DNA from: Ostreococcus lucimarinus
Lineage: Eukaryota
Length of the DNA stretch: 64,000 nucleotides
NCBI GenBank assembly: GCA_000092065.1
Contig: CP000589.1
Reading direction: 5' to 3' (one strand)
The position numbers and the translations under genes are program-made. Positions 21,801 to 47,236 of this stretch are shown piece by piece. Every line of letters starts with the position of its first letter. Position 1 is the stretch's first letter. The notes under the pieces are model-generated. The model worked only from the letters and a program-made list of their open reading frames with translations, was not told the origin of the DNA and made no database searches.

Positions 21801-22578
21801 ATGGCCAACGCCCTCAGGCGTCTCGCGACCGCGTCGTCGCGAGTCGCGCTCTCGCGCGTCGCCGCGGGCGCACCACGCGCGTTCGTCTCCGACGCCAGCG
21901 CGACCGCGACGCCGTGCTGGAGCTGCGACGCGCGAACGACGGCGTTGAATGATGACGCGTCGGCAAACTTTTTCTGCGACGCGTGCGGGGCGATTCAACC
22001 GCCCGTCGCCGCGGATTACTTCGCGCTGCTCGGAGTGTGCGTTTGCGATGTGACCGCGCGCGTTTTGCCCCGGACTGACGCGCGCGCGCGCGATGGACAG
22101 GGAACCAAAGTACGCGCTCGAGTCGGCGGCGCTCGAGGACGCGATGAAGCGTCGACAGAAACTGTTGCATCCGGATAAGTTTAGCACGAAGAGCGAACGC
22201 GAGCGAAGGTACAGCGCGGATCAAGCGTCGGCGGTGAACGAGGCGTACGGCACGCTGAGGGATCCGCTGCGAAGGGCGAAGTATATTTTGGAGGCGCGCG
22301 GTTGGGGGGTGACGGAGCGCGACGGGAGAGACGCGCCCGTGGATCCGGGGCTGTTGATGGAAGTCATGGAGGCTCGCGAGGCGATCGATGAGGCGAATGG
22401 GGACGCGGAGAAGCTGCGAGAGCTGTTGAGGGAGCACAGCGCGCGAGTGACTGCGTGTGAGGAGGAGACTCGCGCGGCGCTGGACGCGACGCCGATGGTT
22501 GGGGAGTCGGCAAAGGAAGCCGTCGTACGCTTGACGTACTTCGTTCGCATCGTAGAAGAAATAAAGGCGCTGCTTTGA
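21801..22578 (+). CDS. HSCB: HscB/Jac1-type J-domain co-chaperone for Fe-S cluster assembly (mitochondrial), two exons 21801..22036 and 22101..22578
   Basis: Exon 1 carries the targeting peptide, a tetracysteine CWSCD...FFCDACG module and DYFALLGV. Exon 2 carries KYALESAALEDAMKRRQKLLHPDKF (the HPD J-domain) and a helical C-domain. From my memory of human HSC20 (CWNCG..FFCPQC..DYFSLMDC + 22 aa + HPD), the spacing matches only after removing a 64-nt GT...AG intron. Confidence 0.8.
22037..22100 (+). other. Intron (64 nt, GTGTGC...CTGAC...GACAG) in HscB gene
   Basis: Removing it restores the frame and the conserved spacing between DYFALLGV and the HPD motif. A CTRAY branch-like CTGAC lies about 25 nt upstream of the AG. 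Confidence 0.7.
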
Positions 22579-22633: not shown

Positions 22634-25009
22634 TTAAAACGAAATCAGATCGTCGTCTACTGACACGGCCGAGACAGAAGTTTCACTCGCTTTGGATTCT
22701 TCGCGCATTCGCTTGGACAATTTTCGGATGTGATCCTCCACGATCGAGATCGCTGCCTGTAGCTCGGGATGCGTGACAAATTTTCGCCCGTAATCCAACG
22801 AGTTTGCGCTGCGCGGAATGTGCATTTCTGCGTTTTCGGAACCAAATTTATTGAAGTCGCGCAGTGTCTGCGTCTCCATCTTTGTGCAACGATCGTCGAC
22901 GTATGTGCGAAGCTCAGTGAGCGTACGTTTCGTCTTGCTGCGTTCAACTTTGTCCCACTCGATACTCTCTTGCATCGCTTCGACACGCTTGGAGACATCG
23001 TCAAAGAGCTCACGGACCGTTGACGTCGACGGTCGATCCTTGATGGTGCGTTCCATGCTCTCATGCATGCTGTGAATGATGAGATCCTGCTCTTCTTGCT
23101 TTCTCGTCAAGTTTGCGATGCGAGACTGCATTGATCCCGACTGTTCGGAATACGCTGACACCGAGTACACTTCAAGGTGCGTCAACTTGCTAGGCGTGCC
23201 CAAAGGCGAGCCCGCGGGGGAGTAGGCGTATTCGCTGCGCGCGCCACCGACGCCGCCGAAGACGGCGTCTTGGATCATCATCAACTCCTTTCTGAACTCG
23301 TTCGTCGAACGGTCGGACGCGAGGCGCAGCTCTTCGCGCAAATCTCTCTCCACAGCGGCAACAGCATGGTTTAGTCTCTTCTCTACCGTTTGGAGAGCGA
23401 CGGCTTGCGCCTCGGCGTTTGGTTTGGCCGCCTGCCTCTCGAGTTTCATCGACACCTCGCAAGATTCCACGCGAAGCTCACTCGCAGCGACGCGCGCCTC
23501 AAATCTCTCGAACCGTTCATCTAACCGATCGATTCGCGTCTTGTGTCCCGCATCCGTGATGCCACGCGTCGCCTCGGCTTCACCCAACACGCGCTTCATC
23601 GCCCTGGTGTGCTCCTCGGAGACCTTGGACAACATGTCGACAGAATTCTTCTCGCTTCCTCTCAAAGCCGCGATGCTTTCCTCGCGTAATTCCGCGAACG
23701 ATGTGAACTGATTGTTGATCCACTGTTTTAACTCATCCGCGCGTTCCGACGCAGCCTTCATTTGATTCACGCTCGAGAGTACGCTCTCCTTGAACGCGTT
23801 GTTTTCGTCATCCGCTTTGCGCATCGCCTCTTCCGCGAGCGCGACGCACTTTCGCGTCTCTTGTGCGGCCCGCTCGGCGTTTCGCGCGGCGGCGCTATCC
23901 GTCGACGACTCAATTTCTCGAATTCGATATTCCATGACTTCTGTCACGGCTGATTCAGCCTTTTGGGTGACTTTCTCCACAACCTTTGCGCCCCACTCCT
24001 TGAGCTGAGACGACAAAACTTCGCCTTGCTCCTGTACCAAGCTCGCGTGTTGCTCAGCCGTCGATGCAATTTCATCGCCCAACGTCCCGATACGCTGGAC
24101 GTCCTTCTCTATGCGATCGATAGTTTGCTGGCCTCGAGACTCGATGCGTTCGACAAAGTCATTTGCCATCGATTCCATCTTCTCCGTCTGCGCCAACGCT
24201 TCTTTGAACCGCGCATACGTCTGGTCGACGTGCTCACATCGATCGTGCACTCGCTTAGCATCCTCGGCACAATCATCACTCAAACGCTCCATGGAATTCG
24301 CGAGCTCGCGCACCTCGAGTAGAGCCTCGCTGACGGTGTTGGCGTCTTGCGAAGCGCGCGCCGCACGCGCCTTCACGATTTCCAACTCGCTCGCGATGGA
24401 CGGCACGTCCGCCGCAGCGAGTGACAGCGCAGTTTGATTCGCCTTTAGTCGCGTCTCCTGCACTTCAACCTCCAACTCTCGCACGAGCGTGGTGACGTCT
24501 GACATCTCGCCCGCCATGGTCTCCAGTCGAGCGTCCACGGCTTTCGCCGCCGCCGCCGCGCCCTCCGTCGCCTTCACACTAATCTGCGTCTCGAGTTCAA
24601 ACAAGTCCACCGCTACCTTACTCGCCGTTGACGCGTGCAGCGTCTCCAGCGCCGCCAAGCGATCGAGCGTCGCCGCGTGTATCGCCCTCGACGCTTGCAA
24701 CTCCTCTCGCAGCGCGTTCGTCGCGTCCTCCAGCGCCTCCACCCTTCGTTCCGCCGCCTCGTGTCTCGCCTCCGCCAGCTCCAACTTCAGCGCGTCGACC
24801 TCCGATCGCGCCGCGTTCGAAGCCACGATCGCCGTTTCCGCGCCAGCGCTCATCGAGCGCGTTCTCAGCGCCTCCAGCTCCGCGCGCGTCGCCTCGGCGC
24901 CGCGCTCGTGGCGACGCAGCACGTACGCCATTCCCTCAAACGCCCTCCGCACGCACGGTCGCACGCTCTGCCAGTCCCGTTCGCCCTTGACGACGTCTTC
25001 GACGCGCAT
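22634..25009 (-). CDS. Large coiled-coil protein (at least 790 aa), function unknown
   Basis: Long helical, E/A/R/L/S-rich sequence with balanced composition over more than 2 kb. The in-frame ORF continues upstream to 25507 through Arg/Ala/Pro-rich sequence that also overlaps the cystathionine beta-lyase 5' region. 25009 (MRVEDVV) is a conservative start; the true start is uncertain. Confidence 0.45.
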   Translation of the reverse strand: MRVEDVVKGERDWQSVRPCVRRAFEGMAYVLRRHERGAEATRAELEALRTRSMSAGAETAIVASNAARSEVDALKLELAEARHEAAERRVEALEDATNALREELQASRAIHAATLDRLAALETLHASTASKVAVDLFELETQISVKATEGAAAAAKAVDARLETMAGEMSDVTTLVRELEVEVQETRLKANQTALSLAAADVPSIASELEIVKARAARASQDANTVSEALLEVRELANSMERLSDDCAEDAKRVHDRCEHVDQTYARFKEALAQTEKMESMANDFVERIESRGQQTIDRIEKDVQRIGTLGDEIASTAEQHASLVQEQGEVLSSQLKEWGAKVVEKVTQKAESAVTEVMEYRIREIESSTDSAAARNAERAAQETRKCVALAEEAMRKADDENNAFKESVLSSVNQMKAASERADELKQWINNQFTSFAELREESIAALRGSEKNSVDMLSKVSEEHTRAMKRVLGEAEATRGITDAGHKTRIDRLDERFERFEARVAASELRVESCEVSMKLERQAAKPNAEAQAVALQTVEKRLNHAVAAVERDLREELRLASDRSTNEFRKELMMIQDAVFGGVGGARSEYAYSPAGSPLGTPSKLTHLEVYSVSAYSEQSGSMQSRIANLTRKQEEQDLIIHSMHESMERTIKDRPSTSTVRELFDDVSKRVEAMQESIEWDKVERSKTKRTLTELRTYVDDRCTKMETQTLRDFNKFGSENAEMHIPRSANSLDYGRKFVTHPELQAAISIVEDHIRKLSKRMREESKASETSVSAVSVDDDLISF

Positions 25010-25301
25010 GAAGTCATCCACGGTGAACACGCGTCGCGTCGTCGCGTCCGCGCGCGTCGGCGTCGCGTTTTCGTTCGCCGTTGGCGAATGCGATGTCCCG
25101 CGTCGCGCGGCGTCATCGCGTCTGGGCGTCGCGCGCGCGCCCGGCGTCGCGCGCGCGCTCGGCGACGCCGCGGGCGACGCCGCGGGCGTCGTCTCCGCCG
25201 ACATGCGCCGCCTCGACGCGCCTCGACGCGAGTCGCTGTCTGCGGTCGCGGCCGCGCGCCCAACGGCCGCGATCGCGACACCGCGACGCCGCGCCGTCGG
25301 C

Positions 25302-26720
25302 ATGCTCGCGACGACGACGACGTCGACGACGTCGCGCGCGATCGTTCCGCGCGCCGCGCGCGCGCGCGCGGGCGCGCGCGCGGGCGCGGCGCCGGTGGCT
25401 CGGTCGAGGGCAAGCGCGGCGCCGACGGCGCGAAACCGCGGTCGAGGCGCGCGAGGGATCGCGCGCGCGCGCGATCGACGCGAGGACGCGCGAGGGGGAG
25501 TCGTCATGAGCGCCGGGACGAGCGGCGACGAGCCCGTGGCGCGAGATCCGAAGGATTATAAGATCGCGACGAAGCTCGCGCACGCGAAGACGAGCGTGAC
25601 GGACCCGTACGGGGCGTCGGCGCCGCCGTTGTATCAAACGGCCACGTTCGCGCAGCCGAGTGCGACTGAAAATGGACCGTATGATTACACGCGCAGTGGG
25701 AACCCGACGAGGACGCAGTTGGAGGAACAGATGGCGAATTTGGAATGCGCGGACCGGGCGTTTGCGTTTTCTTCGGGGATGTCGGCGTTGATGTGCGTCA
25801 CGCGATTGGTGAACGCGGGCGAGAGGATCGTGACGGGGGATGATATATATGGTGGGACGTCGAGGTTGCTCGCGCAAGTGGTGCCGAAGGTTGGGATCGA
25901 GGTGGTTAACGTCGACATGAACGACCACGACGCGGTGCGCGCGGCGATTCAGGGCGGGAACACGACGATGGTGATGATGGAGTCGCCCACGAACCCTCGT
26001 TTGCAAGTGATTGACATCAAGGCTATCTGTGATATGGCACACGAAAAGGGCGCGCTCGTGTGCGTCGATAACTCCATCATGTGCCCGACGTTTCAGGCGC
26101 CGCTCGCGCTTGGTGCGGATATTTCCATGACGTCGGCGACGAAGTTTATCGCGGGTCACTCCGACGTCACGGGTGGATTGCTCGCGTGCAACGGCGAAGA
26201 GCTTGGAAATCGTATTTACTTTCACCAAAACGCCGAAGGTTTGCATCTCGGCCCGTTCGATTGTTGGTTGGCGCTTCGCGGTTTGAAGACGATGCAGTTG
26301 CGCATGGAGCGTCAACAAGAAAACGCGATGAAACTCACGGCGTGGCTTGAATCGCACCCCCGCGTGAACAAGGTGAACTACCCGGGTCTGAAGGCAAACG
26401 TTGGGCACGAACTGCACTCGAAGCAAGCCTCCGGCGCGGGGTCGATCTTTTCCTTTACCACCGGCGACGTCGAATTTTCCAAAATCGTCGTCGAAGAGAC
26501 AAAGCTTCACAAAATCACCGTCTCGTTCGGGGGCACGACGTCCTTGATCTCTCTTCCGTGCTTCATGTCCCATGCCAGTATACCCGCCGAGGTTCGCGCC
26601 GCGCGTGGCTTGCCAGACGATCTCGTTCGCATTAGCTGTGGCATCGAGGACGCCGACGACTTGTTGGCTGACTTGCAGTACGCTTTCGCCGTCGCCGAAA
26701 AGCGCGTGGGTAAGGCGTAA
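25302..26720 (+). CDS. metC: Cystathionine beta-lyase (Cys/Met-metabolism PLP-dependent enzyme family) with plastid transit-peptide-like N-terminus
   Basis: YDYTRSGNPTR is the CBL hallmark. The PLP-lysine region is SATKFIAGHSDVTGG. There is a conserved DNSIMCP block and a C-terminal SLGGTTSLISLP. The track ORF (from 24489) includes non-coding antisense sequence. 25302 (MLATTTT) is a candidate start and 25507 (MSAGTSG) is an alternative. Confidence 0.85.
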   Translation: MLATTTTSTTSRAIVPRAARARAGARAGAAPVARSRASAAPTARNRGRGARGIARARDRREDARGGVVMSAGTSGDEPVARDPKDYKIATKLAHAKTSVTDPYGASAPPLYQTATFAQPSATENGPYDYTRSGNPTRTQLEEQMANLECADRAFAFSSGMSALMCVTRLVNAGERIVTGDDIYGGTSRLLAQVVPKVGIEVVNVDMNDHDAVRAAIQGGNTTMVMMESPTNPRLQVIDIKAICDMAHEKGALVCVDNSIMCPTFQAPLALGADISMTSATKFIAGHSDVTGGLLACNGEELGNRIYFHQNAEGLHLGPFDCWLALRGLKTMQLRMERQQENAMKLTAWLESHPRVNKVNYPGLKANVGHELHSKQASGAGSIFSFTTGDVEFSKIVVEETKLHKITVSFGGTTSLISLPCFMSHASIPAEVRAARGLPDDLVRISCGIEDADDLLADLQYAFAVAEKRVGKA

Positions 26721-26964: not shown

Positions 26965-28034
26965 ATGCGTGCACGCGGACGAGTACAGACGACGAAGCTG
27001 GCGACGAGGGCGGCGTCGTTCTCGAACCGTCACGCAGGGACGGCGAAGCTTCGTGCGCACTGTGCGACGAGGAGGATGACGTCGACGCGCACGCACGTGC
27101 GCGCGGCAAGCATTGACGAGGGTATAAGCGAACCAGTAAAAATAAATGGACGCGATTCTTCGCGCTCGCCGGCGTTCATGAACGTCGACGCCGAGTTAGA
27201 GGTGTTGGAGCGAGGCGCTTCCGCCGAGCCGCCAGCGACTCGAAGCGACAGGCTGCGGAGCCGGTGGTCGAATTCGTTTTGGGATGAGCTCGAGTTGAAC
27301 GCCATCGAGCCTTGGATGATGTGTAACGACGAACCGACGCCTGATGGTTTGCTTCGCTCGGACTCCTTGCTCAGTCCGGCTTGGCGAATGATGCTGCTGT
27401 CGGATGGTTCGGTGACGGTGCGTCGAATTCTCGACGCCTTTGTATTTCACCTTCAGACTAACATTCGCATCGTGTGTTCGCCTCACAGCGTCACTTAAAG
27501 CTGCTCACCGGGCGTGCTGATGTTAAAACGGATGTCCTGTGGCAGGGTAAGATCGATCTCGACCACCGAGGTGCGCGCGAGATCGGCGTTCCGGACGACG
27601 TCCACAAGCGACTCCTCGCCGCGTCTTCGGGCACGCTCCTACAACGCGAGGTGGACCTGTGTGATGCACACGGTGATCCGCTGTGTTACGCCGCGAGCTG
27701 GTGGAACACGAACACCTCCGATACGATCGTCCTCGACACCGACGCCGATAACGCGTACGGTGCGCTCGATCGTCCGGTATGGCTCAAACTCGCCGAGGAC
27801 AAGACGGAGCTCTTTCGCGAAGTCCGCCGCGTCTACCGCGGTCAATCCGAGCGCCTATCCTCAGCCTGGGGCCTTCCCACCGACACCTACTTCTGGGGTC
27901 GTCACTACATCTTCTGGCTCGCTCGCAAACCGCTGTGCGTGATCCACGAAGTCATGAGTCCCGCGCTCGAGACGTACCTCGGCCCGGCCGCGCCCGCGCC
28001 TCGCGCGCGTCGCGCGCGCTCGCGCCGAACCTAA
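26965..28034 (+). CDS. Chorismate-lyase-like (UbiC/DUF98 family) protein, two exons 26965..27417 and 27489..28034
   Basis: Joining ...MMLLSDGSVT (exon 1) to RHLKLLTGRADV (exon 2) recreates LLSDGSVTRHLxLLTG, which I recall as a DUF98 motif. The downstream FWGRHYIFW...PLCVIHEV block is consistent. The two halves are in different frames separated by a GT-AG intron. Confidence 0.5.
27418..27488 (+). other. Intron (71 nt, GTGCGT...CTAAC...CACAG)
   Basis: Consensus-like 5' site GTGCGT and a branch CTAAC 18 nt before the CAG. Removal joins two frames into a conserved motif. Confidence 0.65.
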
Positions 28035-28080
28035 CTCACGACACGACGCCGAGCGACGCATCTCGCGCGCACACGAACGA

Positions 28081-28143
28081 CCACGCACACGACGACCACG
28101 CACACGACGACCACGACGACCACGACGACCACGACGACGACGA
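28081..28143 (+). repeat. Imperfect (GACGACCAC)n / (CACGAC)n microsatellite, intergenic
   Basis: cgacgaccacgcacacgacgaccacgcacacgacgaccacgacgaccacgacgaccacgacgacga read directly. It would encode a His/Asp repeat in one frame but sits outside any supported gene. Confidence 0.8.
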
Positions 28144-28286
28144 TTGTAATCCAGCCGCCGCCGTCGCGACTTCGCGCGAGCGCCCGATCACACACGCCAC
28201 CAGAATCCCGCGTAAACGTCGTCGCGCCGCGGCGCCGCCGCGACGTCACTACCACGCACACACTCACACCACCGCATCCACGCACC

Positions 28287-30156
28287 ATGAGCTCGTCCAT
28301 GTGCGTCGTCGAAACCTCCACCGCCGGTCGCGAATACAAAGTTCGCGACATGGCCCAAGCCGACTTCGGGTACGCGCGACGACGACGCGACGACGCGATG
28401 CGATGCGACGCGAAGCGATGCGCGCGACTTTTGCGCGATGGCGGCTGCGGACGATCGCGCGCGGTGACGGCGCGCGACGCGCGAAGACGGCGGGAGACGC
28501 GAGAAAACGATCGAGGAAAATTGTGACGATCGATGCGAGCGGTCGCGGTGCGCGTTGGACGGTCGACGGGGGCGGTGGATGCGCGAATGGATGATTATTC
28601 CGATTTCGATCGAGATCTATCCACAGCGGCGTTACTTTATCCACCCGACCGGCGACGAGTCGACGCGCGGAGGCTCGGCGGCGAGGATCGGGAAAGACGC
28701 GAAGACGACGGCGATTATGGGGGAAAAGTAGGAGATAACGATCGATGACTGACGATGCATGGGTTTTCGCCGCGATAGTCGCATGGAAATTGAACTCGCG
28801 CAAGTCGAAATGCCGGGTCTCATGTCGTGCATCGCCGAATTCGGGCCGGCGCAACCGCTCGCGGGCGCGAACATCTCCGGTTCTTTGCACATGACCATCC
28901 AAACCGCGGTGCTAATCGAAACGCTCGTTGCGCTCGGTGCCAACGTGCGTTGGTGCTCGTGCAACATCTTCTCTACGCAAGATCACGCCGCCGCCGCCGT
29001 CGCGCGCGACTCGGCCGCCGTCTTCGCGTGGAAGGGCGAGACGCTCGAGGAGTACTGGTGGTGCACGGACCAAATGCTCAACTGGGGCGAAGGCTCCTTG
29101 GACATCATCGTTGATGACGGTGGTGATGCCACCTTGTTGATCCACGAAGGTTACAAGGCTGAGCTCGAGTTCGCCAAGTCTGGCGCCATCCCGGACCCGG
29201 CGTCCACGGACAACGCCGAGATGAAGTGCGTGTTGAAGATCATCGCCGAAAACTTGAAGACCAACCCGAAGCGCTGGCAAAAGATCGTTTCCACCTGCGT
29301 CGGTGTCTCCGAAGAGACCACGACTGGTGTGAAGCGTCTTTACGAAATGCAAAAGGCGGGCGAACTCTTGTTCCCGGCCATCAACGTCAACGACTCCGTC
29401 ACCAAGTGCAAGTTCGACAACCTCTACGGTTGCCGTCACTCTTTGCCGGATGGTATCATGCGCGCCACTGACGTCATGATCGCGTCCAAGACGTGCTGGG
29501 TCGCTGGCTACGGTGATGTCGGTAAGGGTTCCGCCGCCGCGCTCAAGGCTGCCGGCGCTCGCGTCATCGTGTCTGAAATCGACCCGATTTGCGCGCTCCA
29601 AGCCGCCATGGAAGGTTACCAAGTCGCCCCGATCGAAGACGTCGTCGACCAAGTCGACATCTTCATCACCACCACGGGTAACAAGGACATCATCATGGTC
29701 CAACACATGGAAAAGATGAAGAACAACGCCATCGTCGGTAACATCGGTCACTTCGACAACGAAATCGACATGGCTGGCCTCGAATCGTACCCGGGCATCA
29801 AGCGCCAAAACATCAAGCCGCAATGCGACCGCTTTGAATTCCCGGATGGCCACGGTATCATCATGCTCGCCGAAGGTCGTCTCCTCAACCTTGGCTGCGC
29901 CACCGGTCACCCGTCCTTCGTCATGTCGTGCTCCTTCACCAACCAAGCCATCGCTCAGCTCGAGCTTTGGAACGAGCGCAAGTCCGGCAAGTACGAAAAG
30001 AAGGTGTACGTCCTCCCGAAGCACTTGGACGAAAAGGTTGCCATGCTCCACCTCGCGAAGATTGGTGTCAAGCTCACCAAGCTCTCCACCGATCAAGCGC
30101 AGTACATCAACGTCCCGGTCGAGGGTCCGTACAAGCCCGCGGCGTACCGCTACTAG
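28287..30156 (+). CDS. SAHH: S-adenosyl-L-homocysteine hydrolase (adenosylhomocysteinase), two exons 28287..28369 and 28779..30156
   Basis: Exon 1 ([28 protein letters not shown]) plus exon 2 ([15 protein letters not shown]...[21 protein letters not shown]...) reproduces the plant SAHH N-terminus ([32 protein letters not shown]). The Rossmann NAD motif, C-terminal PKHLDEKVA and YRY end are all present. The spliced product is 486 aa. Confidence 0.9.
28370..28778 (+). other. Intron (409 nt, GTACGC...CTGAC...GATAG) in SAHH gene
   Basis: Required to join the conserved ADFG|RMEIELA junction (phase 2). It contains internal short repeats (gcgatgcgatgcgacgcgaagcgatgcg). Confidence 0.7.
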
Positions 30157-30450
30157 ATCCAGTGACCTTGCAGTCACCGTCGCCGAGCCTCGACGCCGCG
30201 CTTCGCGTCGTCGTCGCCTCGCGAGACATTTACCGCGCCCTCGCATTTCACCGGGGGAATCACGCGGTGTATCTACGTGAAACCAATGTTTGCTCAAGCG
30301 ACTAGTAGAGATTCTTCCATAAAACAACAAAACTAGGTTCAGTCGTTGTGATACATACGATACCAAACCTTCAAACGTCGCCGTCGCGGATACAGTCCAT
30401 CCGCCTTCGCCTTCGCCGTCGTCGTCACACCTCCGCGCCTTCGACTCGCG

Positions 30451-31416
30451 ATGTCGCTCGATTCGATCGTCGCCGCCATGACGGCCGCGTTCGGCGCCCT
30501 CGCGTCCGACGTCGACGCCGCGCGCGTCGACGTCGCCGCCTTCGCGCCCTCGCCCGCGGGACTGCGCGCGCTCGACGACCACCTCGCGTCGCGCGCCGCG
30601 CTCGCGGGCCACGCGCTGTCGCGCGCCGACGCCGCGTGCTACGCGAGCGTCGTCGACGCGCTGAACGCGTCGCCCGAGGCGCTGACGCACGCGAGACGGT
30701 GGGCGGCGCACGTGAGCGCGCGCGGCGACGCGGCGCGCGCGGGCGCGGCGACGGCGAGGACGCTCGAGGGCGCGGCGGCGCCGACGTTCGAAAGACCGGC
30801 GGCGACGGCGAACGCGGAAGACGCGAGCGCGAGCGAAGACGGGAAGAAGAAGAAGGAGAAGGAGAAGGAGAAGAAGACGAAGAAGGCGAGCGAGGGAAAG
30901 GCGGCGACGGCGTCGACGAAACGCGTGGACGTGTCGACGCTGGACGTACGCGTCGGCCGAGTGACGAAGGCGTGGGAACACCCGGACGCGGACAAATTGT
31001 GGTGCGAGAACATCGATCTCGGGGAGAAAGGCGTGCGACAGATTTGCAGTGGGTTGCGCGCGTTTAAGACGAAGGAACAGATGGAGGGCGCGCGCGTGTG
31101 CGTCATCGTCAACGTGAAGCCGGGGAAGCTTCGCGACGTCAAGTCGGACGGTTTGGTGCTGTGCGCGTCCAACGCCGACCACACCGAGGTTGATTTCGTG
31201 ATTCCGCCCGAAGGCGCGGCGATCGGCGAGCGCGTCGCGTTCCCGGGCTTCGAGGGCGAGCCGGAGGAAGTGCTCAATCCGAAGAAGAAGCAACTCGACG
31301 CGGTGTGTCTGGACTTGAAGACGAACGCGGAGGGCGTGGCGTGCTACAAAGACGTCCCGTTTACGACGTCGGCGGGCGCGTGCACTTCGTCGCTCAAGAA
31401 CTGCTTCATCAAGTAG
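30451..31416 (+). CDS. tRNA-binding (EMAP-II/Arc1p/Trbp111-type OB-fold) aminoacyl-tRNA-synthetase cofactor-like protein
   Basis: The C-terminal domain LDVRVGRVTKAWEHPDADKLWCENIDLGE..RQICSGLRAF..EGARVCVIVNVKP is the Myf/EMAP-II tRNA-binding signature. A K/E-rich linker (GAAGAG-type repeat) precedes it. ATG verified at 30451. Confidence 0.75.
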   Translation: MSLDSIVAAMTAAFGALASDVDAARVDVAAFAPSPAGLRALDDHLASRAALAGHALSRADAACYASVVDALNASPEALTHARRWAAHVSARGDAARAGAATARTLEGAAAPTFERPAATANAEDASASEDGKKKKEKEKEKKTKKASEGKAATASTKRVDVSTLDVRVGRVTKAWEHPDADKLWCENIDLGEKGVRQICSGLRAFKTKEQMEGARVCVIVNVKPGKLRDVKSDGLVLCASNADHTEVDFVIPPEGAAIGERVAFPGFEGEPEEVLNPKKKQLDAVCLDLKTNAEGVACYKDVPFTTSAGACTSSLKNCFIK

Positions 31417-31494: not shown

Positions 31495-32367
31495 CTATTC
31501 ACCGCACATGATTTCGACGTTGTCGAGCAAACGCACGCTACCAAACTTTGCCGCGACGGCTATCACGCACGGTGAATCCAGCACGCCCACGTACGGCGTC
31601 AACGATTCCGGTTCCATCGCCTGCACGTAATCTACCTCCCCTCCACCGTCTCTGATGCGTTCGCTCACTCGCGTCACGAGCGCGTCGCTCGTCGTCGGCG
31701 CGCGCTCCGCCGTCGCCTTCGCTTCGCTCAAACTTTGATAAATAACCGTCGCCTTCTCTCGATTCTCCGTCGTCAGCAACAAATTCCTCGAGCTCATCGC
31801 CAACCCATCGCTCTCTCGCACGATCTCCCCCCCCACGACGTCGATGTCAAAATCTAAATCTCGCGCCATCCTTCGTATCACGCGCCACTGCTGATAATCC
31901 TTCTTCCCGAACACCGCCGCGTCCGGCTCGACGACGTTGAACAATTTCGTCACGATCGTCGCCACGCCCTTGAAGAAGTGCGGTCGCGTTTTCGCGCACA
32001 GTCCTTTACTCAGCTCGGCGACCTCGACGTACGTCTCGTGCGCCGCGCCTTCGCCTTCGCCTTCGTTCGCGTACATGCGCTTCGGCGCGAAGACGCAATC
32101 CACGCCCCGCGCCCGCGCCGCGCGCTCGTCCGCGTCCCCGACCCTCGGATACGCGTCGAAGTCCTCCCCGGGCGCGAACTGGGTCTCGTTGACGTACACC
32201 GACAGCACGACCGCGTCGCACGCGCACCGCGCGCGCGCGATGTCGACGAGCGCGAGGTGTCCTTCGTGCAGCGCGCCCATCGTCGGGACGAAGGCGACGC
32301 GCTCGCCGCGCGCTCGCCGCGCGCGCGTCCACGCGCGCATCTCGCGCGCGTCGGTGATGATCTCCAT
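31495..32367 (-). CDS. panC: Pantoate--beta-alanine ligase (pantothenate synthetase)
   Basis: [17 protein letters not shown] (PTMGxLHxGH), [19 protein letters not shown] and LAMSSRN motifs. The track start 32424 is GTG. The first ATG (MEIITDA) is at 32367. Confidence 0.85.
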
Positions 32368-32564
32368 CGCACCGGCGCGTCGCGCGACGTCGCGTCGCGT
32401 CGCGCACTGCCGATGGATCCGCACTCGACGACGGACGCGCGTCGTTCGTCTCGCGCCGCGTCGAGCGCGACGCCGCGGCCGCGCGACGCGCGCGCGACGC
32501 GCGGTTCGCGCGAAGGCGCGCGCGAGGGCGCGCGCGACGAAGACGCGACGAAGACGCGGGCGAG

Positions 32565-34880
32565 ATGGATTTCAACGAATTGGAACGACGCGAGGGCGTG
32601 CGGTTGTCGTGGAACGCGTGGCCGTGCTCGCGGATCGAAGCCACGCGCGTGGTGCTGCCGATCGGCGCGCTCGTGACGCCGGGACGCGATCTCGGGGACG
32701 CCGCGCCGACGCTGCCGTACGAACCGGTGGTGTGCGAGGGGTGCCAGGCGGCGTTGAATCCGTACTGCTCGGTGGATTACTACGGCAAGACGTGGCGATG
32801 CTCGCTGTGCGATGGGCTGAATAAATTGCCGAGGAATTACGAACAGATCAGCGAAAATAACCTGCCGGCGGAGCTGTTTCCGACGTACACGAGCGTGGAG
32901 TACACGATGACGAATAAGACGCCGACGGCGCCGTGCTTCGTGCTGTGCGTGGATTGCGCGTGCGGGAGCGCGGAGGAGTTGCAGGACGCGAAGGACAGCG
33001 TGATGCAGTTGGTGAGCTTGTTGCCGGAGGATGCGTTCGTGGGGTTGGTGACGTTCGGGTCGACGGTGCGCGTGCACGAGTTGGCGGAGACGAACGGGGC
33101 GATGCGGCGATCGTACGTGTTTCGCGGGACGAAGGATTGCGAGCAGGAAGATTTGCGCAAGATGTTAGGGCTGGATTTCAATCGTCAGCGCGCGGGGATG
33201 AATGGAATGAATGGAATGAACGGCGCTGCGGCGATGATGCCGAATGGCGTGGACGCCAAGCCGGTGAGACGATTCGTCGCGCCCATCAGCGAGTGCGAGT
33301 TCACGCTGCAGAGCGTCCTCGACGAGGTGACACTGGACGAGGAGAAGACAGAGCGCGGGAAGCGCGCGCTACGGGCGATGGGTGCGGCTATCAGCATCGC
33401 CGCCGGACTTTTAGCCGAATCGCACTCGTCGCAAGGGGGTCGTGTGCTCACGTTCACCTCCGGGCCGTGCACCGTAGGGCCTGGCGCCGTCGTGGGGACG
33501 GATATGAGCGAGAATTTGCGCTCGCACCAAGACTTGGAAAAGAACGCGGCTAAGCATTACAAGGAGGCGTGTAAAGTTTATAACGCGATCGGAATTCGAC
33601 TAGCAACGAATTCTCATACATTGGACGTCTTCGCGTGCTCTCTGGATCAAGTCGGACTGGCGGAGATGAAAATAGCGGTGGATCAAACAGGCGGGAACAT
33701 GATTCTCGCCGAGCAGTTCCGCGCAGAGACTTTCAGGCAATCATTAGCGAAGATGTTTGCGAGAGATCCGAAAACTGGTGCCTTGGAGATGAAGTTCAAC
33801 GGAACTTTTAGCGTGTTCTGCACGCCGCAAATCATGGTGTGCGGCGCCATCGGGCCAATTAGCGCTTTGGCGGTCAAGTCGCAGCGAATTAGTGAAAACG
33901 AAATCGGTTTGGGACAAACCACATCGTGGCGCATGTGTTCGTTCACGCCCACTTCAACCATAGCGGTCTACTACGAAGTCGTCAACCAGCACAGCAATCC
34001 GATCCCCAACGGGCAACCATTCTTTCTGCAGTTTTGCACGAGATTTAAGACGAGTGACGGGCAGATTCGCCTGCGAGTCACCACCGTGGCGAGACGCTGG
34101 GTCGAAAGTAGTTTGGCGCCCGAAATCGTGGGCGGGTTCGACCAAGAGGCGTGCGCTGTACTCATGGCGAGAATTGCAACGTTTAGAACTGAGAATGAAG
34201 AGTCCTTCGACTTGTTGAGGTGGCTCGATCGCACACTCATTCGCGTTGGCGCAAAGTTTGGGGAATATCAGCGAGACGCGCCGGATAGCTTCCGCATGCC
34301 ACCGAGCATGTCCATCTATCCACAGTTCATTTTCCACTTGCGCCGCTCACAGTTCTTACAGACCGCGAATAACTCACCGGATGAAACAGCGTTTTATCGC
34401 ATCATGCTCTCTCGCGAGACGGTGACAAACTCGTTGGTGATGATTCAACCGACGCTGTTGAGTTATTCCTTCAACGGCCCACCCCAACCGGTGCTTTTGG
34501 ACGTCAGCGCAATCACGCCCGATACGATCTTGCTGTTAGACTCATACTTCTTGATAGTCGCACATAGAGGCAGCACGATCGCGGCGTGGCACAAAGCCGG
34601 ATACCAGGATCAACCAGAACACGAGGCGTTCCGCGCCCTGCTCGCGGCGCCGGTACGCGACGCGAAAGCTTTGGCGGCAGATAGATGTCCGACGCCGCGT
34701 CTCGTGGAGTGCAATCAAGGGGGGTCGCAGGCGAGGTTCTTGCTCGCCAAGTTGAACCCTTCGGCAACGCACAACACCGACCTCGGGTACGGTCAAAGTG
34801 GTGGAGAGATCATCTTCACCGATGATATAAGCATGAACGTATTCGTCGACCATTTAGCCAAGCTCGCAGTTAGTTCGTAG
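32565..34880 (+). CDS. SEC23: COPII coat protein Sec23
   Basis: N-terminal zinc finger [12 protein letters not shown]...WRCSLC, a trunk domain with [14 protein letters not shown], a gelsolin-like C-terminus and the signature [24 protein letters not shown] verified at 32565. (GAATG)5 encodes an MNGMNGMNG insert. Confidence 0.9.
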
Positions 34881-34929: not shown

Positions 34930-37572
34930 CTATTCTGGCCACGCCACCGCCGGGGCCAATTCTTCATCGAGCGTTGGCGTGGCGAAATCTGGCACGCTTA
35001 CCGATCGCTTGTGCATCGATCGCTGCGGTGTTTCGAACGCTGCAACGGTGGTCGTCTTTTCAACGTGCAACTCCGCGATACCCTTTTGTCGCCACTCCAA
35101 ACCGGGCACGATTTCTGAGGCCCTGGTCGGTTGACGACGCGGCGACAAAATGCCAGCTTCTTTCTTCACGGGTATGTTGCCCCCTTCATCAGCCTTCTTC
35201 ACGGAGAGCGCGCGACCAGTGGATCTCGCCACTGAACGAACCCTCTTCCCGACGTTGTTGATCACTCCAGGTTTTTTGCCCGGCACCACCGTCACCTGTG
35301 GTGTCGCCTGTGGTGCCGCGTGTGGTTGTTCCTGCAGAATGTCTGTTGGCGTACCGCCCAACTTTGAACGCGTTCGTGCATGCTTCTTCGTCGGAGACCG
35401 AGGAGAGACGACGAGTGGTGAGTCAGCTGTTTCGACGTGTCTCGGTACTGGCGTCGAACGAACTTGCTTGACTATCGGACTCCCGTAAGTGGTGACGTCC
35501 TCACGAGAAGGCTTCTTTTCGATCAATCCCTTCTTCTTTCTCGAAAACATTCTGCTAGTCATTCTGCTCAACGTGCTTGGCTTCCTTTCAGTCTTCTTCT
35601 CGCGCGCTTTTTCCTCGGCAACCCGCTCAGCGACATCTCCCTTGACTTCAGGGTGCAGTAACACGGAAAGAAACTCGAACTCAAACGTCAACGAGCCAGA
35701 CGGCGTGTTCGTGAGCTCGAAGACCTCCTCCACGGGCGTGCCGATGAGCGTGCAACGAGACAGGACGGCTCGTGTGTCAAGTTCGAGATGGCCGAGCGAT
35801 GTCTTCACACCGAATGCGTCGCGATCCCATACTTCGAGCAGGATATTATTCGAGTTTTCGAGCTCTTGCTCGCCGATGATGAACTCAAACTCTTCTTCCC
35901 AGACCGGTTGACGCGTGTTAAACTTGGTACTGCTCTTCCGCTTTTGTCGGTTCATGCGCATCTTCACGAAGGGGTCGGGTGCCTCGCCAACGCCGGCTAA
36001 ATTCTCGCCGCGCAACAGTCGCACGTACAACACACCAGAAAACTGTTCCATCATCATTTTGTTGTCAGTTTCCGCAGAAACCATTGTAGTCGCGGGCACG
36101 GTCTTCGGTGGATGCGCCGCGGCTTCCCCGTGAGGTTGTTCCCTTTTCTTGAATGGATGATACGAAACTGAGATGTTAATTGTCGGGCCGTCAGGAGCGT
36201 TGAACCCGTGCGGCCCGGATGCCCTGGGCGATGACCCACCACCGGTCGGAATAGAGAGCGCGCGTTTCGCCAAGCCAGCGCCGTACAACAACGGTGCCAC
36301 TGCGAGACTGAGCGCCGTCATATCCTTAGCCCTTACCAACGGTACTTGCAGTGCAACTGTCTGTAATGGCGTGTCGTGGCACAAAGAAACATCACACATG
36401 GCCGAACCGATGCTCGGTTTATTCGCTCGCAGCTGCTCGCCGTCGTACTTAGAACTCATGCCTCGTGTGTTACTCCGATTCAACAGCGCGCTCGGCGCTC
36501 GAATAGTGGATCCCACCGTCACGCGAGTATCGATGACGTTGAGACGAAGTTTTGCACTGTGAATATCCGTAACGGTAAACTCGAACGTCTCCTCCCAAAT
36601 CGGGTCTGAGCCTCGCTTAATCGTCGTAGACCGCTTTACGTCCGCGCGTTGGGTCAAGCTAACCTCGACCGCCGCTTTCGGCGGCATCCCCAACCTCCCC
36701 GGCAACTGGCTCGCGCTATGGACGGTGACGCGGAGCAAGCCACTGTTGTGCGCAACTTCATCAGGCTGCCAATCCGACACCGCGCACCACAGACGCGCGG
36801 GCCAGACCATCAAATCTACGAGCTGGTTCTTGATCAAATCGCGCAACATCGAAGCGACCAACGGAACGGCTGTGATATCGCCACCTACGAGCTTTAGCGA
36901 AAAATCGATCGCCGGCTTGTCCACGAATGCAAGTTTCAACGCGCTAAACGACGGCCACCAAGGCACGAGTGGACCAAAAACCAATCGAAACGTCCCGTAC
37001 GCCTCCACGTTGTTCATCTCTATCGGCAACTTGATGCCCAGCGTCGACACGTCCAACACTATGCTCGCATCCTTCGCCGCCCACTTGAACTCGATATCGA
37101 GAATCACCTCACCCTCGCTCTCCGTGCTCACCTTGACGCTCGCCAATATCGGCGGCTCCACTCCACACGTAAACTTTTTAAAATTCATCGACATGCCCGT
37201 CGATTTCGCCAAATCGTTCAACGTCGGTTCCAGCGCCTCCACGACGGACACCGCGATCGCCTTATCCAGCGACGGCCACATCTGTCTCGCCGCCTTATTC
37301 AACCACGGCACCCTGTCGACGTCCGCGTACTTGATCCACTTCGGCAGGTGTCCGATCAATCGTCGCAGCGTGCGTCCGTTCGCGACGACGCTCCCGCTCG
37401 CCGTCTCGTCGCTCAACTGTCGCACGACGCTCGCGAGCTCGCTCCGTTCGCGCCGGCTCGAGCGCGCGCCGATCGCGACGCCGAGCGCCAACGCGCCGGC
37501 GAGCGCCGCGCACGCGAGGCACAGCGCGACGAGCGCGACGAGCGCGACGAGCGGCGTCGGCGTCGGCGACAT
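34930..37572 (-). CDS. Extended-synaptotagmin/tricalbin-like protein (N-terminal TM hairpin, SMP lipid-transfer domain, two C2 domains)
   Basis: Hydrophobic N-terminus, then an SMP domain (WLNKAARQMWP...FKKFTCGVEPPILASVKV...WPARLW), then C2 domains (LLRVTVHSASQLPG...DPIWEETFEF; VLYVRLLRGENL...QPVWEEEFEF). The track start 37587 is TTG. The ATG (MSPTPTP) is at 37572. Confidence 0.8.
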   Translation of the reverse strand: MSPTPTPLVALVALVALCLACAALAGALALGVAIGARSSRRERSELASVVRQLSDETASGSVVANGRTLRRLIGHLPKWIKYADVDRVPWLNKAARQMWPSLDKAIAVSVVEALEPTLNDLAKSTGMSMNFKKFTCGVEPPILASVKVSTESEGEVILDIEFKWAAKDASIVLDVSTLGIKLPIEMNNVEAYGTFRLVFGPLVPWWPSFSALKLAFVDKPAIDFSLKLVGGDITAVPLVASMLRDLIKNQLVDLMVWPARLWCAVSDWQPDEVAHNSGLLRVTVHSASQLPGRLGMPPKAAVEVSLTQRADVKRSTTIKRGSDPIWEETFEFTVTDIHSAKLRLNVIDTRVTVGSTIRAPSALLNRSNTRGMSSKYDGEQLRANKPSIGSAMCDVSLCHDTPLQTVALQVPLVRAKDMTALSLAVAPLLYGAGLAKRALSIPTGGGSSPRASGPHGFNAPDGPTINISVSYHPFKKREQPHGEAAAHPPKTVPATTMVSAETDNKMMMEQFSGVLYVRLLRGENLAGVGEAPDPFVKMRMNRQKRKSSTKFNTRQPVWEEEFEFIIGEQELENSNNILLEVWDRDAFGVKTSLGHLELDTRAVLSRCTLIGTPVEEVFELTNTPSGSLTFEFEFLSVLLHPEVKGDVAERVAEEKAREKKTERKPSTLSRMTSRMFSRKKKGLIEKKPSREDVTTYGSPIVKQVRSTPVPRHVETADSPLVVSPRSPTKKHARTRSKLGGTPTDILQEQPHAAPQATPQVTVVPGKKPGVINNVGKRVRSVARSTGRALSVKKADEGGNIPVKKEAGILSPRRQPTRASEIVPGLEWRQKGIAELHVEKTTTVAAFETPQRSMHKRSVSVPDFATPTLDEELAPAVAWPE

Positions 37573-37737
37573 CGCGAATCGCACCAACCGAATCTATCCT
37601 CCGCGCGGCGTTCGTCCACCGTCCTCGCGACGCGCGCGCGCGCGCGCGGCGAGCGCGCGCCGACGCGCGTCGCGCGCGTCGCCCGCGTCGCGGTCGCGTC
37701 GCGGTGTGCGACGCGCGACGCGTCACTCCGCGCCTCG

Positions 37738-38349
37738 ATGCCGACGACGCCGACGACGCAAACATCGCGCGTCGCGCCGCGCGCGCGCGCGCCGCGAACC
37801 GCGAGCGCGCGCGCGAACGCGCGAACGACGCGCGCGCGCGCGGGGAAGCTCGTCGGCGAGAGCTGGGTCGAACTGAGCGACGCGTCGTACGCCATCGAAA
37901 ACGGACGCGAACTGTACGCCGCGGGTGACGTCGCGTCGGCGCTCAAAGAGTTCGAACGCGCGCTGACGCTGCCGGGAAGCGGCACGAAACGCGATCGCGC
38001 GAAACCGGCGGAGCTGTCGAACGGCGAGCGACAGGCGGCGCTGTATAACATCGCGAGCGCGCGGTGCGCGTTGGACGACCGGAGCGGCGCGCTCGAGGCG
38101 CTGGACGGATGTTTCAGAGCGGGGTACGCGAACCCGCGCGCGTACGGCGCGGCGAGAGGGATGCGAGATTTGGACGCGATGTGGGCGGACGAGGACTTGA
38201 CGCTCGCGACGCGCACGGATGAGTTTCGGGCGATGGTGAAAAAGTACAAGGTGACGCCGAACGCGATGGCGTTGCAGTTCGATTTCAACAACTCCATCAT
38301 CGGCGGCGTCGTGGGCGCGGTGAGCGACAAGATGACGCCGAAAAAGTAA
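37738..38349 (+). CDS. Small hypothetical protein with organellar presequence-like N-terminus and TPR-like helical region
   Basis: First ATG in frame at 37738. The upstream part of the track ORF is antisense to the synaptotagmin gene. The first 35 residues are rich in Thr, Arg, Ala and Pro, followed by balanced helical sequence. No family recognised. Confidence 0.35.
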   Translation: MPTTPTTQTSRVAPRARAPRTASARANARTTRARAGKLVGESWVELSDASYAIENGRELYAAGDVASALKEFERALTLPGSGTKRDRAKPAELSNGERQAALYNIASARCALDDRSGALEALDGCFRAGYANPRAYGAARGMRDLDAMWADEDLTLATRTDEFRAMVKKYKVTPNAMALQFDFNNSIIGGVVGAVSDKMTPKK

Positions 38350-41867: not shown

Positions 41868-42160
41868 CGCCCCGTTCGCCCTTCGCACGAGCGCGCTCGG
41901 CGCGCTCGCGAACGACGCTCGGCTCGACGCGTGTTCCAGCAGCGCCCAATCCCGCGGTCGCAGCGTCGCCAGCAGTCCCGCGGCGCTCGGTCGCGCGTCC
42001 GGTCGCGCGCGGAGCGTCAGCGTCGCGACGTCCTCGTCGCGCGCGACGAGCGCGTCGTTCGCGCGCGCCGCGTCGCGCGTCGCGCGCGCGCGCGGTCGCG
42101 CGCGCGTCGCGCGACGGCGCGGACGCGGGATCCGAATCGATTCGCGTTCGTTACGACGTC

Positions 42161-47000: not shown

Positions 47001-47236
47001 GCTCGACGTCGACGGCGACGAGTGCGAGGACGCGGTGCGCGCGCGATCGCGCGAGCGCGGTTCGAGCGCGCGCGCGACGCGCGAGACGCGCGATGCGCGC
47101 GAAAGATGGCGACGGCGGCGGCGACGCGGCGAGTCATCTTGCGCGCGCGAGGACGACGCGCGGCGACTGACGGCGCGAATGGCGCGCGCGATAGGGGCAC
47201 GAACGCGTGCGACGAGCGATCGAGGCGCTGGAGGTG

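What the first reader, a model, noticed from the sequence alone, without database searches (positions are those of the whole stretch)
28370..28778. 409-nt intron in the SAHH gene, far longer than the other introns here and internally repetitive
The other two introns I could define are 64 and 71 nt. This one is 409 nt, starts GTACGC, has a CTGAC branch-like site and contains short direct repeats (gcgatgcgatgcgacgcgaagcgatgcg). In some Mamiellophyceae genomes, families of repeated 'introner elements' account for many introns. I cannot test family membership from one window.
Basis: partly seen in the sequence, partly recalled or inferred. Interest (0 to 1): 0.5.

Follow-up and report, generated by a model that had tools for sequence, protein, structure and literature searches.

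The report
Ordinary old intron in SAHH gene
The 409-base interruption near the start of the S-adenosylhomocysteine hydrolase gene of the tiny marine alga Ostreococcus lucimarinus is a real, already annotated, single-copy ordinary intron. Related algae have an intron at the same spot, so it is not a mobile "introner" element.

Summary

**The intron is real.** Bases 28370-28778 are a GT...AG intron of 409 nt in phase 2. Removing it yields a full-length SAHH. The product read from the second ATG is identical to Ostreococcus lucimarinus CCE9901 protein XP_001419579.1. Two short environmental contigs that look like transcripts lack exactly these 409 bases.

**Its signals are canonical for this genus.** The 5' splice site is GTACGCG (published consensus GTGCGTG). 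The extended branch point GACTGACG(A) has its branch A 26 nt before the AG.

**It is old.** An intron sits at the same codon position in three other Ostreococcus-like lineages (330-475 nt), a Micromonas-like lineage (280 nt) and another member of the Mamiellales (651 nt). The interiors hardly align.

**It looks single-copy.**
- Its only matches in the window (60-70% identity) are to GC-rich, microsatellite-like tracts at gene 5' ends. Those tracts match each other better than they match the intron.
- A 20-mer from the intron centre hit six metagenome stretches, all this same locus.
- I found no target-site duplication, no terminal inverted repeats, no Rfam match and no unusual RNA fold.

**Its length is unremarkable genome-wide.** Published values are a mean of 168-188 nt, SD 274 and a maximum of 1,773 nt, and intron number and mean intron length both rise with expression.

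Interest is low.

The parts
28287..28369 (+). SAHH exon 1, coding part ([28 protein letters not shown] plus the first two bases of a Gly codon). The annotated protein XP_001419579.1 starts at the second ATG, 28299.
   Evidence: Translation. Exact match of the 482-aa spliced product to XP_001419579.1. Transcript-like contigs L034/L035 cover 28247/28269-28369 at 100% identity.
28370..28778 (+). The intron: 409 nt, GT...AG, phase 2, GC 0.63.
   Evidence: It is skipped exactly in L034/L035. It is present and 409 nt long in 12 of 13 environmental copies of the locus; the 13th is 412 nt.
28370..28376 (+). 5' splice site GTACGCG. It matches 5 of 7 positions of the published Ostreococcus non-chromosome-2 consensus GTGCGTG.
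   Evidence: Consensus from PMC2483917. Orthologous introns start GTGCGTG, GTGCGTC and GTACGTG.
28375..28427 (+). Microsatellite-like tract with CGA/CGACG/CGATG units of period 3-15.
   Evidence: TRF rows. Shuffle control and comparison with GC-rich tiles.
28458..28579 (+). Two short 20-nt-period tandem repeats: 28458-28509 (2.6 copies) and 28540-28579 (2 copies).
28452..28459 (+). CGATCGCG. This short collinear anchor is shared by the orthologous introns of all four Ostreococcus lineages, 75-109 nt from the 5' splice site.
   Evidence: The closely related octamer GCGATCGC is not enriched in the window.
28612..28618 (+). GAGATCT. This short collinear anchor is shared by all four Ostreococcus orthologous introns, 236-286 nt from the 5' splice site. 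Its function is unknown.
   Evidence: It is not enriched in the window overall: 8 matches found against 7.1 expected.
28747..28755 (+). Extended branch-point motif GACTGACGA. The branch A at 28752 lies 26 nt upstream of the 3' splice site.
   Evidence: It is identical in all four Ostreococcus orthologues. GACTGACG is the published extended branch point of canonical Ostreococcus introns (PMC2483917, PMC3879977).
28776..28778 (+). 3' splice site TAG.
28779..30156 (+). SAHH exon 2, coding part through the stop codon.
   Evidence: Precomputed Pfam hits AdoHcyase and AdoHcyase_NAD on the exon-2 ORF product. L034/L035 continue to about 30372-30375, about 217 nt past the stop.

Best explanation
This is a regular U2-type spliceosomal intron, the only one in the S-adenosylhomocysteine hydrolase gene of Ostreococcus lucimarinus. 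It lies 83 nt into the coding sequence.

**How it is removed.** The spliceosome uses the 5' site GTACGCG, the genus-typical extended branch point GACTGACG(A) with its branch A 26 nt upstream of the acceptor, and the acceptor TAG. The splice joins GG|T to restore a Gly codon (...ADFG-RMEIEL...).

**Age and copy number.** It is single-copy and old. An intron was already at this codon position in the common ancestor of Ostreococcus and Micromonas. Since then the interior has drifted almost beyond alignment and has varied in length (280-651 nt).

**Origin of the repeats (inferred).** The extra length and the internal repetitiveness come from slippage-prone, GC-rich, CGA/GCG-type microsatellite-like sequence. 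The same kind of sequence fills the 5' ends of many genes in this genome. The repeats do not come from a mobile element.

**Why it persists (inferred).** Its retention in a very compact genome fits the published trend that highly expressed O. lucimarinus genes keep more and longer introns. Any function is most likely that of a 5'-proximal intron that boosts expression. That step is not shown here.
For: **Splice structure and reading frame.**

**Match to the public annotation.** The 482-aa spliced product is identical to XP_001419579.1/ABO97872.1 of O. lucimarinus CCE9901.

**Exact excision.** Transcript-like contigs L034 and L035 skip 28370-28778 precisely.

**Canonical signals.** The published consensus for EST-confirmed introns outside chromosome 2 is GTGCGTG at the 5' end; 87% carry ACTGAC and 66.5% carry GACTGACG (PMC2483917). 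This intron carries GTACGCG and GACTGACGA.

**Orthologous introns at the same site and phase.**
- L001 9564-10038, 475 nt
- L027 5557-5996, 440 nt
- L030 348-677, 330 nt
- L018 5346-5996, 651 nt
- Micromonas-like L042 4690-4969, 280 nt

**Diverged interiors.** Flanking exons are 87-88% identical, yet the interiors give no blastn match at E < 1e-5. They share only collinear anchors: CGATCGCG, GAGATCT and GACTGACGA.

**Fixed within the species.** All 13 environmental copies carry the intron, with only two single-base substitutions. One further copy has three single-A insertions.

**No second copy.**
- Window matches are generic. GC-rich tiles (GC >= 0.70) have a median best hit of 77 bits to each other, against 64 bits for the intron.
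- The 20-mer scan returned only this locus.

**Length and repeats are ordinary for this genome.**

**Expression trend.** Expression correlates positively with intron number and mean intron length in this species (PMC2367439).
Against: - Within this 64-kb window the intron is 4.6-6.4 times longer than the other candidate introns (64, 71 and a possible 89 nt). Locally it does stand out.
- Its matches to the rest of the window exceed those of dinucleotide shuffles: best 64 bits against 42.6 +/- 4.8, and 22 hits of >= 40 bits against 1.45. There is therefore higher-order similarity, which I attribute to shared microsatellite-type composition.
- The window is only about 0.5% of a 13.2-Mb genome, and the metagenome scan needed an exact 20-mer. 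A small or diverged family would be missed.
- I did not verify that the JGI samples behind L034 and L035 are metatranscriptomes.
- The proposed expression-enhancing role is untested.
- Bathycoccus-like relatives have their long 5' intron 29 nt upstream. The history of this site is therefore not a simple story of conservation.
Confidence: 0.9

Rival explanations
1. The intron is a copy of an introner element. That would be a repeated, transposon-like sequence that inserted into the SAHH gene and is spliced out, as in Micromonas pusilla CCMP1545.
For: - It lies in a mamiellophycean genome and is long for this window.
- It is internally repetitive.
- It matches other parts of the window better than shuffled versions do.
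- The Micromonas commoda RCC299 introner class IE-C carries the same GACTGACG branch motif (PMC3879977).
Against: - There is no discrete second copy in 64 kb. The matches are 60-70% identical, lie on both strands, fall in GC-rich tracts at gene 5' ends and are not reciprocal.
- The best-matching region, 62149-62502, lies among minus-strand genes and does not align in register with the splice signals.
- All six metagenome hits to a 20-mer from the intron centre are this same locus.
- The intron position is shared across genera while the sequence is not conserved. This is the reverse of the introner definition (PMC3879977).
- There is no target-site duplication and there are no terminal inverted repeats.
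- Introner elements were reported absent from published mamiellophycean genomes other than Micromonas (PMC3879977).
Confidence: 0.03
2. The intron is kept long because it carries a cis-regulatory element or acts as an expression-enhancing 5'-proximal intron for a very highly expressed gene. The short motifs conserved among Ostreococcus species (GAGATCT, CGATCGCG) would be candidate sites. This is compatible with the best explanation and adds a function to it.
For: - Every member of the Mamiellales examined has a long intron (280 to more than 800 nt) within the first about 85 nt of the SAHH coding sequence, and Chlamydomonas has one nearby.
- GAGATCT and CGATCGCG sit at collinear positions in all four Ostreococcus introns, whose remaining interior gave no blastn match.
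- Shared 7-mers number 15, against 2.5 expected from first-order Markov resamples of the four introns.
- In O. lucimarinus, expression correlates positively with intron number and mean intron length (PMC2367439).
Against: - GAGATCT is not enriched in the window (8 found, 7.1 expected). The related octamer GCGATCGC is not enriched either (11 found, 13.4 expected).
- GAGATCT is absent from the L018 intron and is not seen in the L042 intron as printed.
- Shared k-mers may simply be residual orthology. Most of the shared 7-mers are CG-rich low-complexity words.
- There are no expression data.
Confidence: 0.25
3. The intron hosts a non-coding RNA such as a snoRNA, or a protein-coding gene on the opposite strand.
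For: - Introns of highly expressed housekeeping genes often host snoRNAs (general knowledge).
- A GGATGAT near 28589 and the CTGA at 28750 loosely resemble C and D boxes.
- A 212-aa ORF runs through the intron on the minus strand at 28264-28902.
Against: - There is no credible Rfam match even at E <= 10; the best hit in the intron has E = 5.4.
- The RNA fold is no better than shuffles: z = +0.86, and 76 of 100 shuffles fold at least as well.
- The interior is not conserved among species, including around the box-like motifs.
- The CTGA is part of the branch-point motif.
- The minus-strand ORF has no Pfam match. Long ORFs in all frames are usual in the GC-rich parts of this window.
Confidence: 0.03
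4. There is no intron. Translation would start inside the region at the ATG of the 465-aa ORF at 28759, and the upstream ORF would be unrelated.
For: Prokaryote-style gene callers on metagenome contigs call exactly this 465-aa ORF.
Against: - Exon 1 encodes the conserved SAHH N-terminus ([15 protein letters not shown]), which is present in all homologues.
- The spliced product equals the public protein.
- Transcript-like contigs join the two exons.
Confidence: 0.01

Closest known systems
Canonical (regular) spliceosomal introns of Ostreococcus outside chromosome 2, as characterised by Irimia and Roy 2008 (PMC2483917)
   Same: - GT...AG boundaries.
- A 5' site close to the consensus GTGCGTG.
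- The extended branch point GACTGACG a short distance (26 nt) from the acceptor.
- Location on an ordinary chromosome. One record carrying the annotated protein is 670,853 bp long and the window GC is about 0.60. I did not map it to a numbered chromosome.
- Removal in transcript-like contigs.
   Different: At 409 nt it is longer than the published median (111 nt) and mean (168-188 nt). It is still within about one standard deviation (274) and far below the longest known intron (1,773 nt).
Micromonas introner elements: IE-A/B/D in M. pusilla CCMP1545 and IE-C/ABC-IE in M. commoda RCC299 (Worden 2009 as cited in PMC3879977; PMC3879977; PMC4540971; PMC4815162)
   Same: Both are spliceosomal introns in a mamiellophycean alga. 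The branch motif GACTGACG is shared with IE-C.
   Different: Introner elements occur in hundreds to thousands of copies with recognisable shared sequence, at positions not shared with relatives. This intron shows no second copy in the data available. Its sequence is not conserved even between sister species, and its position is shared across genera.
5'-proximal expression-enhancing introns (intron-mediated enhancement), for example Arabidopsis UBQ10 intron 1 and Chlamydomonas RBCS2 intron 1 (my own knowledge, not checked here)
   Same: It is the first intron, close to the start of a very highly expressed housekeeping gene. A 5'-proximal intron is retained across a whole order despite extreme genome compaction.
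   Different: No expression test exists for this intron. The resemblance rests on position only.

Membership tests
Regular U2-type spliceosomal intron (Ostreococcus canonical class) | GT...AG boundaries whose removal restores an uninterrupted, homologous reading frame | tested here: met
   The spliced product is a full-length 486-aa SAHH, and read-through meets stop codons.
Regular U2-type spliceosomal intron (Ostreococcus canonical class) | Removed from mature RNA at exactly these boundaries | tested here: met
   L034 and L035 align as two blocks that skip 28370-28778. The public protein XP_001419579.1 uses the same junction. I did not verify that the source samples are RNA.
Regular U2-type spliceosomal intron (Ostreococcus canonical class) | Genus-typical signals: 5' site near GTGCGTG and branch point ACTGAC/GACTGACG close to the acceptor | tested here: met
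   GTACGCG matches 5 of 7 consensus positions. GACTGACGA has its branch A 26 nt from the AG. Consensus values are from PMC2483917.
Introner elements (Micromonas type and introners generally) | Many copies in the same genome with recognisable sequence identity over most of the element | tested here: not met
   No discrete copy was found in the 64-kb window. There is only generic similarity to GC-rich tracts. The 20-mer scan of metagenome contigs returned six stretches, all this locus. Limits: the window is about 0.5% of the genome, the scan needed an exact match, and a full-genome BLAST was not possible.
Introner elements (Micromonas type and introners generally) | Sits at a novel position not shared with related species or strains (recent gain) | tested here: not met
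   Four Ostreococcus lineages, Micromonas-like L042 and L018 share the same site and phase.
Introner elements (Micromonas type and introners generally) | Sequence conserved among copies, unlike canonical introns | tested here: not met
   Orthologous interiors give no blastn match at E < 1e-5, while the flanking exons are 87-88% identical.
Introner elements (DNA-transposon type, Huff et al. 2016; my own knowledge) | Target-site duplication and/or terminal inverted repeats at the element ends | tested here: not met
   There is no direct repeat across the two junctions (CTTCGG|GTACGC against GATAG|TCGCAT) and no inverted repeat at the termini.
Intron-hosted snoRNA or other Rfam family | Match to a covariance model, or a conserved and stable structure | tested here: not met
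   One search gave no credible hit. One search gave z = +0.86.
Expression-enhancing 5'-proximal intron (intron-mediated enhancement) | Presence of the intron raises expression of the host gene | not testable with these tools
   Only position and retention across lineages are known. The published trend links expression to intron number and length (PMC2367439).

The most novel reading that the evidence does not exclude
The SAHH gene of green algae may be under selection to keep a long intron very close to its start codon. The Mamiellales examined all have one (280 to more than 800 nt), but at two sites 29 nt apart, and Chlamydomonas has one at a third site 6 nt from the Bathycoccus site. This would mean repeated replacement or relocation of a functionally required 5' intron. 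The Ostreococcus version would carry short conserved motifs (GAGATCT, CGATCGCG) that act in expression control.
Probability: 0.15. Interest if true: 0.4.

Novelty: already known. Interest (0 to 1): 0.1.

Why it matters
It matters little beyond tidy annotation. The intron is already part of the public gene model of a genome published in 2007, and it belongs to the well-described canonical intron class of Ostreococcus.

Showing that it is not an introner removes a false lead. Introner elements would have been new for Ostreococcus and relevant to how introns spread.

The residual point of interest is modest. A very compact genome keeps a fairly long 5'-proximal intron in one of its most highly expressed genes. 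Related green algae have their 5' intron at slightly different sites, which could make SAHH a small case study for intron retention, sliding or replacement.

Tried and rejected
1. **Sensitive blastn of the intron against the window.** It gave many 60-70% hits that at first looked like a family. I rejected this after two controls. Dinucleotide shuffles showed the signal is above composition. An all-tiles comparison then showed that every tile with GC >= 0.70 cross-matches the others more strongly than the intron does. The best-hit region does not return the intron as its own best hit.
2. **The best hit, 62149-62502.** It overlaps a signal-based plus-strand intron candidate at 62168-62486. The local gene with a Pfam match is on the minus strand, and the alignment is out of register with the splice signals. 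I treated the candidate as spurious.
3. **Possible long intron ending at 47194.** The region is the divergent start of an aldolase-II gene and a methyltransferase gene. The candidate was not supported.
4. **snoRNA or other ncRNA idea.** Rejected by Rfam, the fold z-score and the lack of conservation.
5. **Minus-strand ORF 28264-28902.** It has no Pfam match.
6. **Direct look-up of the spliced protein's contigs.** I got round this with an exact cluster look-up and then used P0163.
7. **Global pairwise alignment scores of orthologous introns against shuffles.** The permissive gap costs and mononucleotide shuffling inflate both identity and z-scores. These numbers are not used.
8. **Micromonas-like L042 intron 2 as a positive control for a multi-copy introner.** It found no extra copies in the few kilobases available, so it gave no control.
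9. **Motif enrichment.** Neither GAGATCT nor GCGATCGC is enriched in the window.

Full report
**What is there.** The window carries an S-adenosylhomocysteine hydrolase (SAHH) gene on the plus strand.

- The coding sequence starts at 28287 and runs to 28369.
- It is interrupted by 28370-28778, which begins GTACGCG and ends GATAG.
- It resumes at 28779 and ends with the stop codon at 30154-30156.
- Removing the 409 nt joins GG|T and gives ...[30 protein letters not shown]..., a full-length 486-aa SAHH. Reading through the interruption meets stop codons.

**Whose gene it is, and whether the intron was known.** The spliced product read from the second in-frame ATG (482 aa) is identical to XP_001419579.1/ABO97872.1 of Ostreococcus lucimarinus CCE9901. 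The window is therefore from that species, and the public gene model already uses exactly this junction.

The exon-2 ORF occurs in hundreds of marine metagenome blocks. Two short environmental contigs, L034 (2,575 nt) and L035 (1,787 nt), encode the uninterrupted 482-aa protein. They align to the window as two blocks, 28247 or 28269 to 28369 and 28778 to about 30372-30375, and skip the 409 nt precisely. They look like assembled transcripts. I could not check the sample type.

**Splicing signals.** Published analysis of EST-confirmed O. lucimarinus introns outside chromosome 2 gives three figures (PMC2483917):

- an unusual 5' consensus, GTGCGTG;
- ACTGAC in 87% of introns;
- the extended branch point GACTGACG in 66.5%.

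This intron has GTACGCG at its 5' end. Its GACTGACGA lies at 28747-28755, with the branch A 26 nt from the acceptor. The "CTGAC branch-like site" is thus the standard branch point of this genus. The same motif was also noted in the Micromonas commoda RCC299 introner class IE-C (PMC3879977).

**Length in context.** Within the window the other signal-defined candidate introns are short:

| Coordinates | Length | Gene |
|---|---|---|
| 22037-22100 | 64 nt | HscB-like |
| 27418-27488 | 71 nt | gene with an Rv2949c-like Pfam domain |
| 45610-45698 (minus strand) | 89 nt, unverified candidate | Sec10-like |

The 409-nt intron therefore stands out locally. Genome-wide it does not. Published values are median 111, mean 168, SD 274 (PMC2483917), and mean 187-188, shortest 26, longest 1,773 nt (PMC2367439). 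The second study also reports that intron number and mean intron length both rise with expression level.

**Internal repeats.** Tandem Repeats Finder reports low-scoring arrays of period 3-20. They cover 145 of the 409 nt. Dinucleotide shuffles give 18.8 +/- 21.5 nt, and none of 200 reached 145, so the repetitiveness is real.

The window's GC-rich tiles (GC >= 0.70) show the same level: median best TRF score 62 and median coverage 146 nt. These tracts are about 0.4-1 kb long and number roughly 15 in the window. They lie at gene 5' ends and in divergent intergenic regions. The 5' third of the intron begins 83 nt after the start codon and has the composition of these tracts.

**Test for a repeat family.** A sensitive blastn of the intron against the window gave many hits of 60-70% identity on both strands.

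- These hits exceed dinucleotide shuffles: best 64 bits against 42.6 +/- 4.8.
- An all-tiles comparison shows that tiles with GC >= 0.70 hit each other with a median best score of 77 bits. That is stronger than anything the intron achieves.
- The intron's best partner, 62149-62502, has its own best match elsewhere.
- That partner lies among minus-strand ORFs, one of which has a Pfam match.
- It also aligns out of register with the splice signals.

This is shared low-complexity composition, not a discrete element.

It returned six stretches. All are collinear with the window at 99.4-99.8% identity, so all are this same locus.

No target-site duplication or terminal inverted repeat is present. 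The literature reports introner elements as absent from published mamiellophycean genomes other than Micromonas (PMC3879977).

**Age.** An intron occupies the same site and phase (ADFG^R, phase 2) in the following lineages.

| Locus | Lineage | Intron coordinates | Length |
|---|---|---|---|
| L001 | Ostreococcus-like | 9564-10038 | 475 nt |
| L027 | Ostreococcus-like | 5557-5996 | 440 nt |
| L030 | Ostreococcus-like | 348-677 | 330 nt |
| L018 | more distant Mamiellales | 5346-5996 | 651 nt |
| L042 | Micromonas-like (GC 0.67) | 4690-4969 | 280 nt |

- The SAHH of L042 is closest to the cluster that contains Micromonas pusilla CCMP1545.
- Protein sequences from short, transcript-sized contigs of these relatives show the same exon junction (P0131 and P0147).
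- Flanking exons are 87-88% identical between O. lucimarinus and L001, yet the interiors give no blastn match at E < 1e-5.
- Only three short collinear anchors are shared by all four Ostreococcus introns: CGATCGCG, GAGATCT and the branch motif.
- Within O. lucimarinus populations the intron is fixed and nearly invariant in 13 environmental copies.

A conserved position with an unconserved sequence is the signature of an old ordinary intron. It is the opposite of the introner definition.

**Other functions considered.**

- Rfam gave no credible hit.
- The RNA folds no better than shuffles, z = +0.86.
- The minus-strand ORF across the intron has no Pfam match.
- GAGATCT and GCGATCGC are not enriched in the window.

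A role as an expression-enhancing 5'-proximal intron is plausible from its position and its retention. It fits the published link between expression and introns in this species (PMC2367439). It remains an inference.

**Verdict.** The introner interpretation is not supported. The feature is an already annotated, canonical, single-copy, ancient spliceosomal intron. Its extra length is made of the slippage-prone GC-rich sequence typical of gene 5' ends in this genome. The main limit is that a full-genome similarity search could not be run. A small, old, diverged family cannot be formally excluded, and I put that at about 3%.

**Side observation.** Two Bathycoccus-like lineages have their long 5' SAHH intron 29 nt upstream, at EYK|VRD in phase 0 (L021, 711 nt; L024, more than 800 nt). 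Chlamydomonas has one a further 6 nt upstream, at GRE|YK in phase 0. A land plant (kiwifruit) has none there. That makes three positions within 35 nt, which hints at relocation or repeated gain of a 5'-proximal intron in this gene. I did not follow this up further.

Noticed in passing
window, e.g. 25001-25600, 30401-31009, 32001-32800, 37400-38000, 41800-42600, 46600-47400, 61400-62600: About 15 GC-rich (0.70-0.79), microsatellite-like tracts of 0.4-1 kb lie at gene 5' ends and in divergent intergenic regions. They cross-match each other at 62-70% identity on both strands and give the window its saw-tooth GC profile. Their cause was not examined. Candidates include low-complexity N-terminal coding sequence, promoter composition and biased gene conversion.
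   Followed up: partly
L021 5281-5991; L024 upstream of 6001; L045 about 1537-1871; compared with window 28370-28778: The 5'-proximal SAHH intron sits at three different sites within 35 nt:
- GRE|YK (phase 0) in Chlamydomonas;
- EYK|VRD (phase 0) in two Bathycoccus-like lineages;
- ADFG^R (phase 2) in Ostreococcus, a Micromonas-like lineage and L018.

A kiwifruit SAHH gene (L046) has no intron there. This suggests intron relocation or repeated gain near the start of this gene.
   Followed up: partly
L021 around 5272-5290 and 5985-6000: The Bathycoccus-like intron is bounded by the same sequence, AG|GTTCG(C/T)G, at both ends. This could be a remnant of a target-site or repair duplication, or it could be chance. 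The B. prasinos-type L024 intron does not show it.
   Followed up: no
window 28287-28301: The public protein XP_001419579.1 starts at the second ATG (28299, MCVVETS). The upstream in-frame ATG at 28287 (MSSS-) is conserved in all four Ostreococcus lineages and lies inside transcript-like contig L034. The true start may therefore be four codons earlier.
   Followed up: partly
window 28452-28459 and 28612-28618: CGATCGCG and GAGATCT lie at collinear positions in the SAHH intron of all four Ostreococcus lineages, although the intron interiors gave no blastn match. Neither GAGATCT nor the related octamer GCGATCGC is enriched in the window as a whole.
   Followed up: partly
L042 about 5352-5720: The Micromonas-like SAHH gene has a second intron of about 370 nt at ...LLIHEG|YKAE... 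that Ostreococcus lacks. No further copy was seen in the roughly 12 kb available, so whether it is an introner element remains open.
   Followed up: partly
window 28068-28143: A 15-nt tandem repeat (CGCACACGACGACCA, 4.8 copies, also readable as ACGACG units) sits just upstream of the SAHH 5' UTR, directly after the stop codon of the upstream gene.
   Followed up: no
window 45610-45698 (minus strand): A candidate 89-nt intron (GTGCGTT...GACTGACTC...AG) lies near the 5' end of the Sec10-like gene. It was found by signal scan only.
   Followed up: no
window 28409; L014: Base 28409 is C in the window, T in 12 of the 13 environmental copies of the intron, and A in one. One contig (L014) has three single-A insertions, possibly long-read errors.
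   Followed up: no
L034 1-27 and 1748-2575; L035 1-93: Both transcript-like contigs carry unrelated sequence at an end. L034 runs into a bacterial-type Mur ligase gene. They are probably chimeric assemblies.
   Followed up: no
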